A program made the position numbers and the translations under genes. A stretch of DNA of 64,000 bases from a virus (lineage: Duplodnaviria > Caudoviricetes): IMG/VR virus record IMGVR_UViG_3300021958_000024; one strand, given 5' to 3'. The notes beneath the pieces were generated by a model that did no database searches, had not been told where the DNA came from, and saw only the letters and a program-made list of their open reading frames with translations. Shown piece by piece: positions 31,717 to 38,391 of this stretch. The stretch's first letter is position 1. Each line of letters starts with the position of its first letter.

Positions 31717-32151
31717 ATGAAGTCTTACAAAGAGTTTGTTTCTGAAGCATTCAAAAGAACTGGCAAGAAAATATCCTTTGTAAGACTTCATCATGGGTCT
31801 GATGAAGACTCAGTAAAATCAATCAAAAAGAGTGGTCCTAGACCTTCACCTAAAGGTAGTGAGGGTCCAGGACATTATGTCACTCCAGATAAAAAGAAAG
31901 CATCAAAATATGCTGAGTTTACTTCTAAATCAAGAAAGAAGAAACCAGCAGTAGTATCATATAGAGTTTCAAAGAAAAGGATTACTAATACAGATAGTAT
32001 TCCAAAAGGACTTACATCTCAAAAGAAAACTACAAGTGAGAAACCAGTTGTAAGAAATACACGAACTGGTCATGTTGCCATGGACGCTGACTATGCGAAT
32101 AAGAAAATGATTCGTAAGACAGAACCTATTATTCGTAGAAAAAGGAGGTAA
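31717..32151 (+). CDS. ADP-ribosyltransferase-fold protein with capsid-targeting-like N-terminus
   Basis: MKSYKEFVSEA versus T4 CTS MKTYQEFIAE; RLHHGS...GPGHYVT....A..YA ART motifs. Confidence 0.65.
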   Translation: MKSYKEFVSEAFKRTGKKISFVRLHHGSDEDSVKSIKKSGPRPSPKGSEGPGHYVTPDKKKASKYAEFTSKSRKKKPAVVSYRVSKKRITNTDSIPKGLTSQKKTTSEKPVVRNTRTGHVAMDADYANKKMIRKTEPIIRRKRR

Positions 32152-32156
32152 GTATT

Positions 32157-34154
32157 ATGGCAGATCCAAAAACTGATATAAATGAATCTTTATGTTGTAT
32201 TGCTTTAAGATATATTGATAAGTATCCAACAAATAGTGTGGATGATTTTGTTGACATGATAACTACTGAGGGTAAAAAACCAGAGGAGTGGAGTGATAAT
32301 GGTGTTCTGGAAAATTTGGAAATAGGAAGAGGAAAATATAGAACACATTCAACATATAGATCTGCTTATGGTCAGAAAGATTCAAATAAAAATTTAAAAT
32401 ATGAAACTTGGATTAAAGGGTCATTTTATAGTGCTCAAGCAATAAGGAAAAAGTTAAATGTTGTTTTAAGTCAATACATCATATCAAGACCAGACGAAGA
32501 AGAAAATAATAAATCTTATATAATTAAAGAGAAATGTGCTTCTGCAATCAAAAATTGGTCAAATGTTTTTAGCAGGACTGATGTAGCAAAAGCACAAAAA
32601 TGGTCTCCGGGAATTTTATCTAAGTTAAACTCTGATAAAATTAATATTGCAGATATTATGTTAATACATAAAAATCCTGAAGTTTATGATGAACTTGATG
32701 AAATTCAAGAAATAACAAATAAAGTAAAATGGAAGGATGTCTGTAATAATCCATCAATCATTAAAAATTTACTAACACCCAAAAAATATAATGAATACAT
32801 GAATAGAGCATGGTTGATAAAAGATATATTCAACATTTCTTTAAAAAAAGTATTGTCTGAAAATTTTCCTGTAAAACTGATAAACTTAGACAGAAACTCT
32901 GCCAAAGAATATGATAGTGATATTGACGAATTTCAATTTTTGCTAACATCATTAGTTGGTGCTGCTAAATCTGGTTCTCTTTCTAATTTTGAAAACCTAA
33001 TTAAAGAAACTATTGATTTAGAACCTGTTATTTTTTCTGCAAATGATAGATTGGAAGTTAAATATAAACTTAATATCAAAAATCTTAACTTGAATAAAGT
33101 AAAGTCATATGATTATACAATGTGGACTAATTTTGGTGGAGGTCAAAATTCTGTTTACTTTTCTCAAGCAGGCAGTAAATCTGCTTCTGGAGAAGGAGGA
33201 ATAACACTTACTTACTTTTCAAATTTGGTTAAAGATATTCCAAAGTTAAGAACGTTCCTAACATATATGAAACTAAAAAGAAAAGAATATTTTAATGCAG
33301 CATGTCAAAAATATGGTTTAAATTTTAGTGATTCTAAAATGGGAGATTCTTCACTATCAAATGCCAAATATAATTCTATTCTTTATACATCAAATGATTT
33401 CAAAAAGTTAGTTCATGTTCTATTGACTGATGAACCAGTAACACAAAAAGATGTAATCACGCCTATAAAATATATCACCAAAAGTACTGGAGAGGTGATT
33501 ATAAATGATGGTCAAAAATTAACCAAAATTGATTATAAGTCAATGTTAGTCTTGGAAGATTTTTTTAAATCATATGTTAATTTTTTATCAAACAATAGTA
33601 GTCAAATGGGAACATATTTTGGTTTGAGTGAAAAAACGAAAAAAAGTTTAATAACTCAAGGAAGAAAAATGTATCAAAAATTTGAACAAGTTTATAATAA
33701 AGAAGTTTTATCAAAGAAAAAGAAAAAATTAGATCAAAAAAAATATGAAACTTTGAAAAAAGACATTGGTAAAATTAAAGGCATTAGTGGAACAGAGACA
33801 ACAAAACTAAAAAATGAAAGAATACTTAACGCAGTTTCTTTGACAGAGAGTGAAATTAAGTCAATAAAACAATTTTCTGTCTCAGAAGCAAGAAAATGGA
33901 AAAGCAAAGAATATAAAAGTTTTAAAGAATCATATAAAAAAGGATTTGCACTTCTTGCAAATGCGGAGTTTGGTTATATGTATTCTGAATACGCAGATAA
34001 AATTAACGAATTGGTGAAAAAACAAGTATTACTATCATTATATGCCGCAGCAAGTGGTAGAGGTTATATTATATTTGAAGGAAAAAAATTTGAAATGGAT
34101 GATTATTTTGAAAAAGATGTAAAAGGTGCTCCTTATCTAAAAGTTGGTATGTGA
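32157..34154 (+). CDS. Large AT-rich, Lys-rich protein with a PD-(D/E)xK-like nuclease motif
   Basis: N-terminal ESLCC helix, DKINIADIMLI...ISLKK (NPADIW..SLKK-type nuclease motif). Confidence 0.5.
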   Translation: MADPKTDINESLCCIALRYIDKYPTNSVDDFVDMITTEGKKPEEWSDNGVLENLEIGRGKYRTHSTYRSAYGQKDSNKNLKYETWIKGSFYSAQAIRKKLNVVLSQYIISRPDEEENNKSYIIKEKCASAIKNWSNVFSRTDVAKAQKWSPGILSKLNSDKINIADIMLIHKNPEVYDELDEIQEITNKVKWKDVCNNPSIIKNLLTPKKYNEYMNRAWLIKDIFNISLKKVLSENFPVKLINLDRNSAKEYDSDIDEFQFLLTSLVGAAKSGSLSNFENLIKETIDLEPVIFSANDRLEVKYKLNIKNLNLNKVKSYDYTMWTNFGGGQNSVYFSQAGSKSASGEGGITLTYFSNLVKDIPKLRTFLTYMKLKRKEYFNAACQKYGLNFSDSKMGDSSLSNAKYNSILYTSNDFKKLVHVLLTDEPVTQKDVITPIKYITKSTGEVIINDGQKLTKIDYKSMLVLEDFFKSYVNFLSNNSSQMGTYFGLSEKTKKSLITQGRKMYQKFEQVYNKEVLSKKKKKLDQKKYETLKKDIGKIKGISGTETTKLKNERILNAVSLTESEIKSIKQFSVSEARKWKSKEYKSFKESYKKGFALLANAEFGYMYSEYADKINELVKKQVLLSLYAAASGRGYIIFEGKKFEMDDYFEKDVKGAPYLKVGM

Positions 34155-36003: not shown

Positions 36004-36074
36004 CTGTTCACTCATCACCCTGCTGTCGCGGTAGGGTGATATTATTAAAAGGTCAAAGCACACAACACAAACAC

Positions 36075-36443
36075 ATGGCAAAAGTCGTCTACAACAACTG
36101 TATTGGTGGTTTTGCACTATCAAACGATGCACTTTATCGCATGGTGCAACTTGGTTCTCCTTACATCAAACCAAATCCTGAGTTTGAAGCAACCAATGAG
36201 TATGGTGATGGAACTACCACCAAATGGTGGGAGGCAAAGTATATTTACGACTGGGATCTTCCTCGTCACGATGAGATTCTAGTGCAAGTAGTTGCTGAAC
36301 TGGGTGATCGTGCCAACGGTCCAGGCGCATCACTTAAACTTGCTGATGTAGTCTCCCAGTATATTATTATGGACACTCGGGGTATGGAGCAAGTTATCCA
36401 ACCCCAAGAGATCCAATGGCAAACCGCAACCAATCGTCTTTGA
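36075..36443 (+). CDS. Hypothetical phage protein
   Basis: KVVYNNCIGGFALS...RHDEILVQVVAELGDRANG; first gene after promoter cassette 35989-36045. Confidence 0.7.
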   Translation: MAKVVYNNCIGGFALSNDALYRMVQLGSPYIKPNPEFEATNEYGDGTTTKWWEAKYIYDWDLPRHDEILVQVVAELGDRANGPGASLKLADVVSQYIIMDTRGMEQVIQPQEIQWQTATNRL

Positions 36444-36445
36444 TT

Positions 36446-36985
36446 ATGACCTACACATTTAACGGTGGTATTCAAACAGGCACAGTTGCAACTGATGCCC
36501 GTGCTCGCAAACTTGACGAGCAATGTAAGCATGTGAAGAAAACTATTCTTCCTATTATTTCTGCGATCTATCCTGAAGTAACTATGCAGATCAGACTTAC
36601 TAAAGCACAGATTCCTGGCAGTAAAGGTGCTTGCGAACCCGATGGTGGTTTGTGGTTCTACAAAGGCAAACTGATTTCAGTGTTTGAAGGTAAGAAACAG
36701 CAGGATCGAGGTAATGCTATCGAACGCTGGTTCAAAAACAACTATATTTGCCGAAAGATCAATTCTGAGGTGAGTTATGTCACTTTCTGTACTGGTGAAG
36801 GTGCATATGATGATGGTACGATTGGCAAAACCCTGCATGTTGCTCATCTTGCAGGAGTGAATCAGTATAATCCTGGAGATAACTCTGTATTTTACAATAC
36901 AGACTGCTTTACACGAGAGTTTATTTCTGATACAATGCTAGAAGTGCTCTCAGAGCGTATTCAATCGGTAGATCTATCTCAATGA
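36446..36985 (+). CDS. EcoRI-family type II restriction endonuclease (minimal)
   Basis: PDGG (36638), FEGKKQ (E at 36686), RGNAIERWFKN (36707) match EcoRI PD91..E111AK113 and G140NAIER145. Confidence 0.8.
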   Translation: MTYTFNGGIQTGTVATDARARKLDEQCKHVKKTILPIISAIYPEVTMQIRLTKAQIPGSKGACEPDGGLWFYKGKLISVFEGKKQQDRGNAIERWFKNNYICRKINSEVSYVTFCTGEGAYDDGTIGKTLHVAHLAGVNQYNPGDNSVFYNTDCFTREFISDTMLEVLSERIQSVDLSQ

Positions 36986-37821
36986 AACCTTTATTCATCT
37001 GGGCAGGTGGTAAAACAAAGGTGCTAAAACATTATGCACCTTTTATGCCATCTGCCCCTTTTTCTACATATTATGAACCATTCTTTGGTGGTGGTGCAAT
37101 GTTTGTCCATGTGATGAACACATATAAACCAAAGAATGTTGTCATCAATGACATCAACGATGATGTGATGAACATCTATCGTTCGATTCGTAATGAATAT
37201 GATGAGTTTATTGATAGAGTCGATAGTTTAGAATCTCAATATCTGCCATTGAGCAAAGAAGATCGCAAGAAGTTTTATTTTGATATTAGACATCTTCATG
37301 CATGGAACTATCAAGAATGGAGCAAACCATTTGAAGCAGCAACACTATATTTTTTGATGAAGACTGGATTCAATGGTATCTATCAACTGAACAAGAATAC
37401 TAATGGAAGGTATGGAACACCTGCTGGATTGCTGAACCAGAAGGATAAGATCTATGATCGCTCTGTGATGCTATGGTGGAAACAAGCACTGCAAAGTGTA
37501 GATATTCGCTCTGGTGATTGGAAAGATGCCGTAACTGATGATCCTGATGGTTTCTTCTTCTTTGATCCACCATATCGTGATAGTTTTGCAGATTATGGCA
37601 ATGGATTTGATGAGCAGGCACTGCTAGACCTTATCGACTTTGCCGATGCACAAAATACAGTTTTTGTTGCTAACCGTGCAGATGATAACTGGTTTGATGA
37701 TAAATCAAAGTCATTAAATGTTCATTACTTTAACATCACATACACTGCTGGTCGTAGGAAGAAAACAGCAACAGGATATGCTGCAAAGCAAGCGCGTGAA
37801 ATCCTACTTTACAAACCTTGA
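36982..37821 (+). CDS. Dam-family (D12, alpha-class) N6-adenine DNA methyltransferase, probably not GATC-specific
   Basis: WAGGK, EPFFGGG, NDIN, GFNG, DPPY; ATGA-coupled to the nuclease gene. Confidence 0.9.
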   Translation: MKPLFIWAGGKTKVLKHYAPFMPSAPFSTYYEPFFGGGAMFVHVMNTYKPKNVVINDINDDVMNIYRSIRNEYDEFIDRVDSLESQYLPLSKEDRKKFYFDIRHLHAWNYQEWSKPFEAATLYFLMKTGFNGIYQLNKNTNGRYGTPAGLLNQKDKIYDRSVMLWWKQALQSVDIRSGDWKDAVTDDPDGFFFFDPPYRDSFADYGNGFDEQALLDLIDFADAQNTVFVANRADDNWFDDKSKSLNVHYFNITYTAGRRKKTATGYAAKQAREILLYKP

Positions 37822-37846
37822 CAGACTCATCCGTCCATACTAATCT
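37818..37846 (+). promoter_or_regulatory. Sigma70-type early promoter
   Basis: TTGACA-17 nt-TAATCT; shares cttgacagactcatc with the promoter at 27568. Confidence 0.65.
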
Positions 37847-37869
37847 ACCTATGTTGTCCACACTACATT

Positions 37870-38391
37870 ATGTTTGACATCAAACAAATCAATCTTGAAG
37901 AGTTTTTCGGTTGTGTAGATGCAACTAACACAACGCAGATGAAGTCTAATACCTTCAAGACCTTTCGTACATGGTTGCAAGAGAAATCATTTGCCAAATG
38001 GAGTAATAATCAACTGAAATATGTTGGTGACTATACTGATGGCACAGATTTTACATCAGATGATGGTACTCGATATGAAATGAAAGGTGCTCTCGGTATG
38101 TTCAACAAGAATGGATCTACCAAGAGCATTGTTCTTAAGAACTTTCAATCTGATAATAAAGTAATCGAAAAGACTTTTGATTACATGCTACTGGTTGATA
38201 CTAAGAACATGTCTATTGCATCAGTTGATTGGGAAACTGTAGAGAAGCGTATCTACTACACTCCCAAATCACCAACAGCAAAAGTAAAGTTTATTCCTGG
38301 TGATTTTACTATTCTAGCAACAGATATTAAACCCGCAAGTAAATCTATCAGTGCAGGTGAGATTCTAGATAAGGTTGAGGTGATTCTGTAA
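37870..38391 (+). CDS. PD-(D/E)xK nuclease-like protein
   Basis: WLQEKS helix, GTDF...RYEMKG, FDYMLLVD. Confidence 0.6.
   Translation: MFDIKQINLEEFFGCVDATNTTQMKSNTFKTFRTWLQEKSFAKWSNNQLKYVGDYTDGTDFTSDDGTRYEMKGALGMFNKNGSTKSIVLKNFQSDNKVIEKTFDYMLLVDTKNMSIASVDWETVEKRIYYTPKSPTAKVKFIPGDFTILATDIKPASKSISAGEILDKVEVIL

What the first reader, a model, noticed from the sequence alone, without database searches (positions are those of the whole stretch)
36446..37821. Phage-encoded restriction-modification pair predicted to target AATT: minimal EcoRI-fold nuclease coupled to a re-specified Dam-family MTase
Seen: two translationally coupled genes (ATGA overlap at 36982-36985). The 179-aa nuclease has PDGG...EGK...GNAIER. 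Known: in EcoRI, D91/E111/K113 are catalytic, the 137-145 GNAIER segment reads the inner AATT, and R200/R203 on the outer arm read the flanking G. Seen: after YVTF the protein lacks the long outer arm and has no matching Arg pair (CTGEGAYDDGTIGKTL). Known: EcoDam reads G1 with K9, the G opposite C4 with R124, and the AT core with Y119/N120/L122/P134. Seen: this MTase keeps the core residues (GFNGI...P147) but has Ile at the K9 position (LFIWAGGK) and Gln135 at the R124 position (GIYQLN); Gln is a classic adenine reader. Inference: both enzymes independently point to AATT rather than GAATTC or GATC, and AATT is the word this genome avoids (next finding). A lytic phage with its own 4-cutter could use it to degrade host DNA for nucleotides or to exclude co-infecting phages while methylating itself.
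Basis: partly seen in the sequence, partly recalled or inferred. Interest (0 to 1): 0.9.

Follow-up and report, generated by a model that had tools for sequence, protein, structure and literature searches.

The report
Phage AATT restriction-modification gene pair
A marine T4-like cyanophage carries a movable two-gene cassette, a stripped-down EcoRI-type DNA cutter plus a Dam-type methylase with changed base-reading residues, that most likely cuts and protects the 4-letter word AATT; phages carrying it have purged that word.

Summary
Two overlapping genes (ATGA at 36982-36985) encode a 179-aa nuclease and a 279-aa D12/Dam-family methyltransferase.

The nuclease model matches EcoRI best (Z 14.0, next 8.7). 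A family profile finds EcoRI by sequence (E 1e-10), aligning PDGG, E-x-K and GNAIER. EcoRI's ~21-residue segment before GNAIER is absent.

The methylase keeps EcoDam's central readers but changes all three G:C readers: K9 to I, Y138 to L, R124 to Q. Gln at the R124 position occurs in 42 of 42 methylases next to nuclease homologues. Ordinary cyanophage Dams keep Arg.

AATT depletion tracks the cassette. O/E is 0.14-0.19 in the window, S-RIM2 and S-BM1, against 0.65-0.97 in five cyanomyoviruses lacking it, four grown on the same host strain. All 16 NAATTN contexts are depleted. One lineage with the nuclease and no D12 methylase in 74-112 kb contigs has zero AATT (0 of 537 expected).

CCGG and RGCY depletion occurs in every phage sampled, so it is unrelated. 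Close relatives have a 240-bp segment in place of the cassette.

Specificity and activity are inferred, not measured. The role (host DNA breakdown or phage rivalry) is open. The scan's other notes on this genome flag the same pair and the AATT avoidance.

The parts
36446..36985 (+). Nuclease gene, 179 aa (minimal EcoRI-like PD-(D/E)xK enzyme). An alternative ATG at 36416 would add 10 non-conserved residues.
   Evidence: ORF. phrog_2400 at 3.9e-89. 306 homologues. Top fold match is EcoRI at Z 14.0. Profile hit to EcoRI at E 9.6e-11. No Pfam, NCBIfam or PADLOC model hits it directly.
36638..36649 (+). P65-D66-G67-G68, the first catalytic motif (aligns with EcoRI PDGG, which holds D91)
   Evidence: Invariant in A1 and A3. 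Aligned to EcoRI.
36686..36694 (+). E81-G82-K83, the second catalytic motif (aligns with EcoRI E111-A-K113)
   Evidence: E81 and K83 are invariant. Aligned to EcoRI EAK.
36710..36727 (+). G89-N90-A91-I92-E93-R94, identical to EcoRI 140-145, the element that reads the inner AATT
   Evidence: G, N, A and R are invariant and E nearly so across 53 diverse members. GNAxER is present in 127 of 150 representatives. Aligned to EcoRI GNAIER. The roles of N141, A142 and R145 are given in PMC4081073.
36982..36985 (+). ATGA overlap: the methylase start codon overlaps the nuclease stop codon
   Evidence: Sequence. The same tight R-then-M order is seen in most related loci.
36982..37821 (+). D12 (Dam-family) N6-adenine DNA methyltransferase gene, 279 aa
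   Evidence: PF02086 at 1e-31, 111 bits. TIGR00571 at 138.5 bits against a cut-off of 114.85. Best solved relative is DpnM 2dpm at 2.8e-24. PADLOC MTase_II at 3.3e-45.
36997..36999 (+). Ile6 at the EcoDam K9 position (a first-base-pair reader in EcoDam)
   Evidence: Alignment. This position is I, M, V or T in 43 partner methylases but K in S-CREM2.
37081..37095 (+). FFGGG, the AdoMet-binding motif I
   Evidence: Invariant in A2. Aligned to DpnM and EcoDam FxGxG.
37369..37386 (+). F130-N131-G132-I133-Y134-Q135. The central-AT readers are kept (EcoDam Y119, N120, L122).
   Evidence: Alignment. Q is present in 42 of 42 scorable partner methylases and in S-CREM2's 32%-identical one. Other cyanophage Dams read NGLSRYN. 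The R124 function is described in PMC4417163.
37564..37575 (+). D195-P196-P197-Y198, the catalytic motif IV
   Evidence: Sequence. DPPY is present in the partner methylases.
36420..37869 (+). Extent of the accessory cassette. Close relatives L093 and L094 have a 240-bp segment with a 55-codon ORF here, between the same flanking genes.
   Evidence: blastn of the flanks. The flanking-gene homologues are adjacent in L093 and L094.
36036..36443 (+). Upstream flanking gene (135 aa, phrog_16527, function unknown). Not part of the cassette.
37870..38391 (+). Downstream flanking gene (173 aa, no family). Present in relatives that lack the cassette, so not part of it.
   Evidence: The fold attempt failed.

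Best explanation
The locus is a mobile, phage-borne type II restriction-modification cassette. The 179-aa protein is a minimal homodimeric EcoRI-type PD-(D/E)xK endonuclease. It keeps EcoRI's catalytic D/E/K residues and the GNAIER element that reads the inner AATT. It lacks the EcoRI elements that read or clamp the outer G:C pair, so it most likely recognises and cuts the bare tetranucleotide AATT. The translationally coupled Dam-family methylase most likely makes A-m6A-TT. It keeps the central A:T readers and the position-2 target geometry of GATC enzymes, and it replaces the three residues that read the outer G:C pairs (K9 to I, Y138 to L, R124 to Q). The phage protects itself in two ways, by methylating AATT and by purging it from its genome. 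Relatives that lost the methylase have purged the word completely. Unmethylated DNA in the infected cell, whether the host chromosome or co-infecting phages, would be cut about every few hundred bases. Shown here: gene structure, family membership, fold, motif conservation, strict pairing with the Gln-type methylase, the link between cassette presence and AATT depletion, and the insertion/deletion nature of the cassette. Inferred: the cleavage and methylation specificity, catalytic activity, and the biological role.
For: Fold and homology. EcoRI is the top structural match, standing well above all others: Z 14.0 against 8.7 for the next hit and 7.9 for MunI. A 53-member family profile hits EcoRI at E 9.6e-11 with PDGG, E-x-K, Q and GNAIER in register. 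The catalytic and recognition residues are invariant across 28-93% identical members. The homodimer prediction scored 0.70 against 0.01 for the best control. The mark was reached by 20 of 30 solved pairs of one chain and 1 of 23 single chains. The runs agree in at least 87% of contacts and the partner's pLDDT is at least 82. The interface includes residues 90-101 and 127-135. This pass may reflect likeness to the solved EcoRI dimer.

Methylase. It belongs to D12/Dam. The GATC outer-base readers are replaced, and their roles are documented in PMC4417163, where R124A loses discrimination at position 4. Gln at this position occurs in 42 of 42 methylases next to nuclease homologues. It also occurs in distant pairs and in S-CREM2's partner. 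Unpaired cyanophage Dams have NGLSRYN.

Site. AATT O/E is 0.19, 0.14 and 0.17 in the window, S-RIM2 and S-BM1. It is 0.65-0.97 in five cyanomyoviruses with no nuclease anywhere in their complete records, four of them grown on WH7803 like S-RIM2 and S-BM1. Among the closest helicase relatives, loci with the cassette show 0.13-0.38 and loci without it 0.55-0.83. Over deduplicated IMG/VR loci the medians are 0.27 and 0.63 (Mann-Whitney p 8e-10), while the TTAA control is 0.51 against 0.51. All 16 NAATTN contexts are depleted. The nuclease-only contigs G002-G004 have 0 AATT against 537, 320 and 330 expected. The window still holds 128 AATT sites, one of them inside the nuclease gene, so a protecting activity is needed if the nuclease is active.

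Mobility. The cassette is replaced by 240 bp in close relatives. The nuclease is 71% and the methylase 79% identical to S-RIM2, while the neighbouring helicase is only 43% identical.
Against: No enzyme activity, cleavage site or methylome has been measured. The specificity rests on homology, residue logic and genome statistics. Zero counts can also arise from host pressure: CCGG is absent from many cyanomyoviruses, with no CCGG nuclease identified in this work. The three zero-AATT contigs are near-identical, so they count as one lineage, and they are only 41-63% complete. The with/without comparison is confounded by phylogeny. In an unbiased scan of 136 words, AATT ranked fourth by p-value, although it was the only top word depleted in carriers. 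Some carriers show little depletion: L051 0.73, L064 0.69, L065 0.85, and S-CREM2 0.33 mononucleotide but 0.73 Markov. S-CREM2's methylase keeps Lys at the K9 position. The nuclease itself does not reach Pfam's EcoRI threshold.
Confidence: 0.72

Rival explanations
1. The pair is a genuine R-M system, but its site is longer or degenerate and merely contains AATT, for example RAATTY as in ApoI, or GAATTC or CAATTG as in EcoRI and MunI.
For: The only solved relatives read 6-bp sites. A conserved K128 and H134 lie on the helix that corresponds to EcoRI's R200/R203 helix and could contact flanking bases. TAATTA is the most depleted context, at 0.03.
Against: All 16 NAATTN contexts are depleted to 0.03-0.37. 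The nuclease-only lineage has no AATT in any context in 100 kb. The residues before GNAIER that correspond to EcoRI M137-A139 are not conserved in the family. EcoRI segment 117-137 is missing.
Confidence: 0.1
2. AATT avoidance is imposed by restriction systems of the natural hosts. The methylase is an anti-restriction orphan. The nuclease has another job, such as homing or recombination, or another specificity.
For: Other words (CCGG, GGCC, RGCY) are purged in all cyanomyoviruses with no phage nuclease implicated here. An orphan Gln-type methylase exists without a nuclease in L114, where AATT O/E is 0.33. Some fragments with no detected nuclease also have low AATT, such as L117 at 0.22 and L132 at 0.20, though they are only 6-8% complete.
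Against: Phages propagated on the same strain WH7803 but lacking the nuclease are not depleted. Depletion separates close relatives by cassette presence. The nuclease carries EcoRI's AATT-reading motif unchanged. The nuclease is kept intact in the methylase-less, AATT-free lineage.
Confidence: 0.1
3. The biochemistry is the same (an AATT cutter plus an AATT methylase), but the cassette is chiefly a selfish or competitive element. In mixed infections it destroys unmethylated rival phage genomes, and so spreads or excludes competitors. It is not a tool for recycling host DNA.
For: The distribution is patchy and the genomic positions vary, with much higher identity than the neighbouring core genes. 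The cassette is a clean insertion/deletion against close relatives. Orphan Gln-type methylases could serve as immunity. Variable ORFs are inserted between R and M.
Against: Nothing here separates this role from host-DNA degradation. In chloroviruses the packaged restriction enzymes degrade host DNA and were found not to cause mutual exclusion (PMC7019647).
Confidence: 0.3

Closest known systems
EcoRI restriction endonuclease (G^AATTC; Pfam PF02963; PDB 1eri, 1ckq, 2oxv)
   Same: Same alpha/beta PD-(D/E)xK fold (Z 14.0). PDGG, E-x-K, Q and GNAIER align in register. A homodimer is predicted through the recognition helices.
   Different: 179 aa against 277. There is no counterpart of about residues 117-137, and the C-terminal half is about 44 residues shorter (and sequence). 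By my hand alignment, EcoRI's R200 and R203 fall opposite T129 and V132, so no Arg pair is present. The Pfam threshold is not reached. The partner methylase belongs to the D12 (alpha) class, not the EcoRI-methylase type. The family is found almost only in viruses.
MunI (C^AATTG; PDB 1d02) and the AATT four-cutter MluCI
   Same: MunI shares the fold (Z 7.9). The review PMC4081073 lists EcoRI, MunI and MluCI together as a possible case of mosaicism, so a link between an AATT cutter and EcoRI has been suggested before. The predicted site is the same as that of MluCI.
   Different: No MluCI or other AATT-cutter sequence was available here, so relatedness could not be tested. MunI is a much weaker match than EcoRI. 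The Atlas also shows separate small viral MunI-domain proteins.
EcoDam, T4Dam and DpnM GATC methyltransferases (D12 class)
   Same: Same family (PF02086, TIGR00571), the same FxGxG and DPPY motifs, and the same central readers (aromatic-N-G-aliphatic and Pro).
   Different: K9 is I, Y138 is L and R124 is Q, so the outer G:C pairs cannot be read as in Dam. It is always paired with the mini-EcoRI nuclease or derived from such a pair.
Chlorovirus R-M pairs (for example CviAI, CviAII, CviJI)
   Same: Virus-encoded adjacent nuclease and methylase genes that read very short sites. They are thought to degrade host DNA early while the viral DNA is methylated (PMC7019647).
   Different: Those are eukaryotic algal viruses with unrelated enzymes. 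Here the carrier is a lytic T4-like bacteriophage, where the review PMC4081073 says type II REase genes rarely occur. Protection here also relies on purging the site.

Membership tests
EcoRI-like type IIP restriction endonuclease (PF02963) | PD...(D/E)xK catalytic motif at the EcoRI positions (D91, E111, K113) | tested here: met
   D66, E81 and K83 are invariant and align with EcoRI PDGG and EAK.
EcoRI-like type IIP restriction endonuclease (PF02963) | GNAIER recognition element (EcoRI 140-145) | tested here: met
   G89-R94 is identical to the EcoRI element and aligns with it. It is conserved in the family.
EcoRI-like type IIP restriction endonuclease (PF02963) | Reaches the curated Pfam score | tested here: not met
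   There is no hit for this protein at E up to 1. Only 5 of 38 homologues give weak hits, the best at E 0.011.
EcoRI-like type IIP restriction endonuclease (PF02963) | EcoRI fold | tested here: met
   VIA Z 14.0, rmsd 2.8 A over 155 residues, next hit 8.7. Foldseek E 1.8e-5. Model pLDDT 76.
EcoRI-like type IIP restriction endonuclease (PF02963) | Inner and outer arms and the R200/R203 contacts that read or clamp the outer G:C | tested here: not met
   EcoRI residues of about 117-137 have no counterpart in the profile alignment. The C-terminal half has 69 residues against about 113. The residue-level mapping of R200 and R203 is my hand alignment, not a structural superposition.
EcoRI-like type IIP restriction endonuclease (PF02963) | Homodimer | tested here: inconclusive
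   The prediction supports it: score 0.70 against 0.01 for the best control. The mark was reached by 20 of 30 solved pairs of one chain and by 1 of 23 single chains. The pass may come from likeness to the solved EcoRI dimer.
Dam family / D12 class N6-adenine methyltransferase | PF02086 and TIGR00571 above the curated cut-offs, with FxGxG and DPPY motifs | tested here: met
   111 bits against 22, and 138.5 bits against 114.85. FFGGG and DPPY are present.
GATC-specific Dam (EcoDam equivalog NF008152) | K9, Y138 and R124, the readers of the G:C pairs; the equivalog score | tested here: not met
   These positions are I6, L151 and Q135. NF008152 scores 46.5 bits against a cut-off of 441.
Type II restriction-modification system | Adjacent nuclease and methylase genes that co-occur across genomes | tested here: met
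   A D12 methylase follows the nuclease in 43 of 53 IMG/VR loci where the nuclease ORF was found, many of them short fragments. The same holds in distant members.
Type II restriction-modification system | Nuclease and methylase act on the same sequence, and methylation blocks cleavage | not testable with these tools
   This needs biochemistry or a methylome. Indirect support: residual AATT is tolerated only where the methylase is present, and AATT is zero where it is absent.
AATT isoschizomers (MluCI, Tsp509I, Sse9I) | Sequence similarity to a characterised AATT cutter | not tested
   No sequence of these enzymes was available through the tools. The literature search gave no sequence analysis.

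The most novel reading that the evidence does not exclude
A large, almost purely viral family of roughly 180-aa EcoRI-derived AATT cutters serves marine T4-like phages as an offensive weapon against host or rival DNA. Carriers use at least three interchangeable self-protection strategies: a Dam methylase re-specified to AATT, complete purging of AATT from a genome of more than 100 kb, and an unknown third route in carriers that show neither. Orphan copies of the methylase would then circulate as immunity, which would be an inter-phage arms race written into tetranucleotide usage.
Probability: 0.4. Interest if true: 0.85.

Novelty: new variant of a known kind. Interest (0 to 1): 0.72.

Why it matters
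Type II restriction genes are regarded as rare on bacteriophages (PMC4081073). Standard defence and annotation models miss this nuclease (no Pfam, NCBIfam or PADLOC hit), so the methylase is read as an ordinary Dam.

If the reading is right, it gives three things:
- A natural minimal EcoRI scaffold that shows which parts of EcoRI add the outer G:C reading.
- A natural example of how Dam can be re-targeted from GATC to AATT by three substitutions.
- A candidate answer to how cyanophages that lack modified bases could tell their own DNA from host DNA when they recycle nucleotides.

It also explains a strong compositional signal, AATT loss down to zero, that could be used to predict which uncultured phages carry or face this enzyme. 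S-RIM2 and S-BM1 grow on Synechococcus WH7803, so all of this can be tested directly.

Tried and rejected
- Direct sequence searches of the nuclease against PDB chains and against Pfam, NCBIfam and PADLOC found nothing. A profile of close homologues (A1) also missed EcoRI. Only the broader profile A3 found it.
- The genome-contig scan returned one locus, a 2.9-kb Aquirufa MAG contig. It used a single peptide pattern, so it only weakly supports the view that the family is viral.
- No whole genome is held for the window. A 4-base pattern is too short for the genome search.
- Literature searches for MluCI, Tsp509I and Sse9I sequence analyses, and for AATT methylation in marine viruses, gave nothing usable. 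Hiraoka 2022 reports AATT m6A only in three Acidimicrobiia MAGs, and its supplements are not held. The S-CREM2 paper does not discuss the gene that its GenBank record labels 'restriction endonuclease EcoRI'.
- The promoter and terminator scan was no better than shuffled sequence.
- Four estuarine metatranscriptome assemblies hold the stretch without any difference. Contigs cannot show that it was RNA rather than carried-over DNA, so I do not claim expression.
- Low-AATT fragments with no detected nuclease (L114, L117, L132, L147, L127) are 6-20% complete, so absence cannot be judged.
- The downstream 173-aa ORF looked faintly like small viral nucleases in the Atlas (0.91-0.92, the 'often chance' range). 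Its fold prediction failed (pLDDT 33), so nothing can be concluded.
- I considered that this ORF belongs to the cassette and rejected the idea, because it is present in relatives that lack the cassette.
- DUF6267, the gene after the nuclease in L064 and L065, has no solved or PADLOC relative.
Full report
**What is in the sequence**

The window is part of a T4-like cyanomyovirus (family Kyanoviridae). At this locus the nearest isolates are Synechococcus phages S-RIM2 and S-BM1, at 77-78% nucleotide identity over about 57% of the 2.4-kb query. On the + strand, ORF 36446-36985 (179 aa) ends in a TGA that overlaps the ATG of ORF 36982-37821 (279 aa). An upstream ATG at 36416 would add ten residues, but these are not conserved among homologues.

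**The nuclease**

No curated model recognises it directly: Pfam, NCBIfam, PADLOC and PDB sequence searches all found nothing.

- It belongs to PHROG 2400, a family of unknown function.
- It has 306 homologues in the 90%-clustered protein collection.
- It has 273 representatives at 50% clustering, most of them 165-200 aa.
- P65-D66-G67-G68, E81, K83, G89-N90-A91 and R94 are invariant even in a 53-member alignment with 27% mean column identity.
- 127 of the 150 listed representatives carry PDGx...ExK...GxAxxR.

An AlphaFold model built on 38 sequences (pLDDT 76) matches EcoRI first. The Foldseek E-value is 1.8e-5. VIA-align gives Z 14.0, rmsd 2.8 A over 155 residues, against Z 8.7 for the next hit and 7.9 for MunI.

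A profile of the diverse members then finds EcoRI by sequence alone, at E 9.6e-11. The alignment places PDGG on EcoRI's PDGG (which holds D91), E-x-K-x-Q on E111-A-K113-H-Q115, GNAIER on residues 140-145, and YVTF on YVLF. Between K113 and G140 EcoRI has about 21 residues with no counterpart. After the YVxF strand the phage protein has 69 residues where EcoRI has about 113.

From my knowledge of the EcoRI structure, the missing parts are the inner and outer arms. The review PMC4081073 describes the arms as reaching around the DNA, and describes N141, A142 and R145 as contacting the inner AATT. By my hand alignment of the helix after the YVxF strand, EcoRI R200 and R203 fall opposite T129 and V132. 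This mapping is not a structural superposition.

A homodimer is predicted with score 0.70 against 0.01 for the best control. The mark was reached by 20 of 30 proteins solved as pairs of one chain and by 1 of 23 solved as single chains. The runs agree in at least 87% of contacts and the partner's pLDDT is at least 82. The symmetric interface runs through residues 90-101 and 127-135. Because EcoRI's dimer is solved, this pass may only reflect the likeness.

**The methylase**

It is a D12/Dam-family enzyme: PF02086 scores 111 bits, and TIGR00571 scores 138.5 bits against a cut-off of 114.85. Its best solved relative is DpnM. It falls far below the EcoDam equivalog model (46.5 bits against 441).

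In the HMMER alignments to EcoDam and DpnM, the residues that handle the central A:T pairs are kept: Y119 is F130, N120 is N131, L122 is I133 and P134 is P147. The three residues that read the outer G:C pairs are all changed: K9 is I6, Y138 is L151 and R124 is Q135. PMC4417163 documents these roles. It also reports that EcoDam R124A loses the requirement for C:G at position 4 and methylates GATT faster than GATC. The target adenine is at position 2 of a 4-bp palindrome in Dam. The equivalent position in AATT is the inner adenine. From my own knowledge, this is also the adenine that M.EcoRI methylates to block EcoRI.

**Pairing across genomes**

A scan of IMG/VR with the nuclease alignment gave 54 loci.

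- Wherever the contig extends far enough, a D12 methylase usually follows on the same strand. It either overlaps the nuclease gene or is separated from it by a 1.2-1.4 kb inserted ORF.
- In one locus, L073, the two are fused in a single open frame.
- All 42 methylases whose motif could be read have Gln at the R124 position. The K9 position is I, M, V or T.
- The same Gln-type methylase accompanies very distant nucleases at 28-35% identity. One of these has GNAHQR and sits between gp44 and gp62 of an AT-rich T4-like phage.
- In S-CREM2 the nuclease is 60% identical and is labelled 'restriction endonuclease EcoRI' in GenBank. Its methylase lies two genes downstream and is only 32% identical, yet it keeps FNGIWQ. 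It has Lys at the K9 position, so that substitution is not essential.
- Dam genes of nuclease-free relatives read NGLSRYN, like EcoDam.

**Which word is the target**

In the window AATT occurs 128 times, against 686 expected from base composition or 523 from a Markov model. All sixteen NAATTN contexts are depleted, to 0.03-0.37.

GGCT/AGCC, CCGG, GGCC and AGCT are also depleted. Sampling 50-64 kb from eight isolates shows these are low in every cyanomyovirus, whereas AATT is low only where the nuclease is present. The AATT values, as mononucleotide O/E and Markov O/E:

| Phage | Nuclease | AATT O/E (mono / Markov) |
|---|---|---|
| Window | present | 0.19 / 0.24 |
| S-RIM2 | present | 0.14 / 0.21 |
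| S-BM1 | present | 0.17 / 0.30 |
| S-CREM2 | present | 0.33 / 0.73 |
| S-SCSM1 | absent | 0.86 / 0.99 |
| S-SM2 | absent | 0.71 / 0.83 |
| S-RIM8 | absent | 0.65 / 0.73 |
| S-PM2 | absent | 0.97 / 1.00 |
| Syn30 | absent | 0.80 / 0.93 |

S-SCSM1, S-RIM8, S-PM2 and Syn30 were grown on the same host strain, WH7803, as S-RIM2 and S-BM1.

Further comparisons point the same way:

- Among the 80 closest relatives of the neighbouring helicase, the four loci with the cassette have O/E 0.13-0.38. The nine next-closest loci without it (helicase 73-80% identical) have 0.55-0.83.
- After removing near-duplicates, loci with the nuclease have median 0.27 and loci without have 0.63 (Mann-Whitney p 8e-10). 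The isocompositional control TTAA is 0.51 in both groups.
- This test is not corrected for phylogeny. In an unbiased comparison of all 136 tetramers AATT ranked only fourth by p-value. The higher-ranked words (CATG, CGTA, ACAT) are lower in the control clade, so AATT is the top word depleted in carriers.

The most telling case is a lineage of three related contigs (G002-G004, 74-112 kb, 41-63% complete). They carry an intact nuclease and no D12 methylase anywhere in the contig. They have no AATT at all: 0 against 537, 320 and 330 expected. Complete removal in every context fits a 4-bp site and argues against a 6-bp one.

The caveat is that CCGG is also zero there and in many other phages, so host pressure alone can produce zeros.

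**The cassette is accessory and mobile**

Two close relatives, L093 and L094, have the same flanking genes with a 240-bp segment holding a 55-codon ORF where the window has the 1.45-kb cassette at 36420-37869. The nuclease is 71% and the methylase 79% identical to S-RIM2's, while the adjacent helicase is only 43% identical, and the gene order around the pair differs. An orphan Gln-type methylase without a nuclease exists in L114.

The family looks essentially viral. The nearest Atlas clusters are 93-100% Viruses, and a pattern scan of 185,579 species genomes confirmed one small MAG contig (a weak test).

**How it most likely works**

The shown and inferred steps are separated under the best explanation. 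In brief, the dimeric nuclease would read AATT through the N90, A91, E93 and R94 elements and cut at D66, E81 and K83. The methylase would convert AATT to A-m6A-TT on phage DNA. Packaged DNA enters already methylated, so the nuclease-first gene order is harmless for a lytic phage. Selection against leaky self-cutting removes AATT over time, as is known for genomes that carry R-M systems (PMC4687349, abstract seen). That process has gone to completion where the methylase was lost.

A 2-kb island at 32000-34000 with 26 AATT sites suggests recently acquired DNA that depends on methylation. Unmethylated host or rival DNA would be cut frequently.

The closest biological parallel is the chlorovirus R-M pairs. 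Those are adjacent genes for 2-4 bp sites, and the nucleases are packaged and degrade host DNA within minutes (PMC7019647). Whether the cyanophage cassette serves nucleotide scavenging, competition between phages, or its own spread cannot be decided from sequence.

**Verdict**

The finding is a new variant of a known kind: a virus-borne type II R-M system with a minimal EcoRI-family nuclease and a re-specified Dam. It is not annotated as such and it is easy to test.

My confidence that this is an R-M-type pair is about 0.9. My confidence that the site is AATT is about 0.75. My confidence in any particular biological role is at most 0.5.

Noticed in passing
window 32000-34000 (ORF 32157-34154, 665 aa): An island with 26 AATT sites in 2 kb, where the rest of the window has 0-9 per 2 kb. 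The ORF has no PHROG hit. It looks like recently acquired DNA that has not yet been purged.
   Followed up: partly
window and loci L004-L026, L085-L092: CCGG is absent or nearly absent, and GGCC, AGCT and GGCT/AGCC (RGCY) are strongly depleted in every cyanomyovirus sampled, whether or not it carries the cassette. Hiraoka 2022 reports m4C at RGCY in marine Myoviridae-like genomes. The cause (host or phage enzymes) was not examined.
   Followed up: partly
L015-L017 (S-SM2); L018-L020 (S-RIM8); L083 and L084: There are other lineage-specific purges. CTAG is 0 in 60 kb of S-SM2. GATC O/E is 0.18 in S-RIM8. GATC, ACGT and TCGA are each 0 of about 15 expected in an AT-rich T4-like contig. These may mark other phage-borne or host four-cutters.
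   Followed up: no
L002:3645-4688 (S-RIM2 isolates); L036:3894-4871 and other loci: A polymorphic ORF of about 1.2-1.4 kb lies between the nuclease and methylase genes in many phages. In S-RIM2 it is 347 aa (phrog_2558, weak DUF6551). In L036 it is 326 aa (phrog_5778). Some S-RIM2 isolates lack it.
   Followed up: partly
L073:1878-3296: The nuclease and methylase are read as one open frame of about 473 codons. This is either a natural R-M fusion or an assembly error.
   Followed up: no
L114:12471-13334: An orphan Gln-type (NGIWQIN) methylase with no nuclease gene upstream. AATT O/E is 0.33 in that locus. It may be immunity without the weapon, or a remnant of a lost pair.
   Followed up: partly
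L064:361-1860 and L065:1779-3274: An intact nuclease is followed by a DUF6267 (phrog_455) gene instead of a methylase, and AATT is not depleted (0.69 and 0.85). The contigs are small, so a methylase may lie elsewhere. Otherwise the means of self-protection is unknown.
   Followed up: partly
window 37870-38391: A 173-aa ORF with a conserved D...EMK stretch and no family. Atlas features weakly resemble small viral nucleases (DpnI, PvuII, Bsp6I and PDDEXK_16 clusters at 0.91-0.92). The fold prediction failed (pLDDT 33).
   Followed up: partly
L005:11344-12177 (S-BM1): S-BM1 also has a second, unrelated D12 methylase between gp44 and gp62 (motifs RYPGGKS and FSGLSE). This is the same locus where some AT-rich T4-like phages carry the mini-EcoRI plus Gln-type methylase pair (L083).
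   Followed up: partly
Atlas search with window:36446-36982: A separate, mostly viral cluster of about 160-aa proteins carries the MunI Pfam domain (PF11407 in 100% of members). Miniaturised AATT-core nucleases may therefore have arisen more than once in phages.
   Followed up: no
window 36036-38391: The stretch occurs without a single difference in contigs from four estuarine metatranscriptome libraries, and in seawater, estuary and plastisphere metagenomes from many studies. Transcription is not shown by this.
   Followed up: partly
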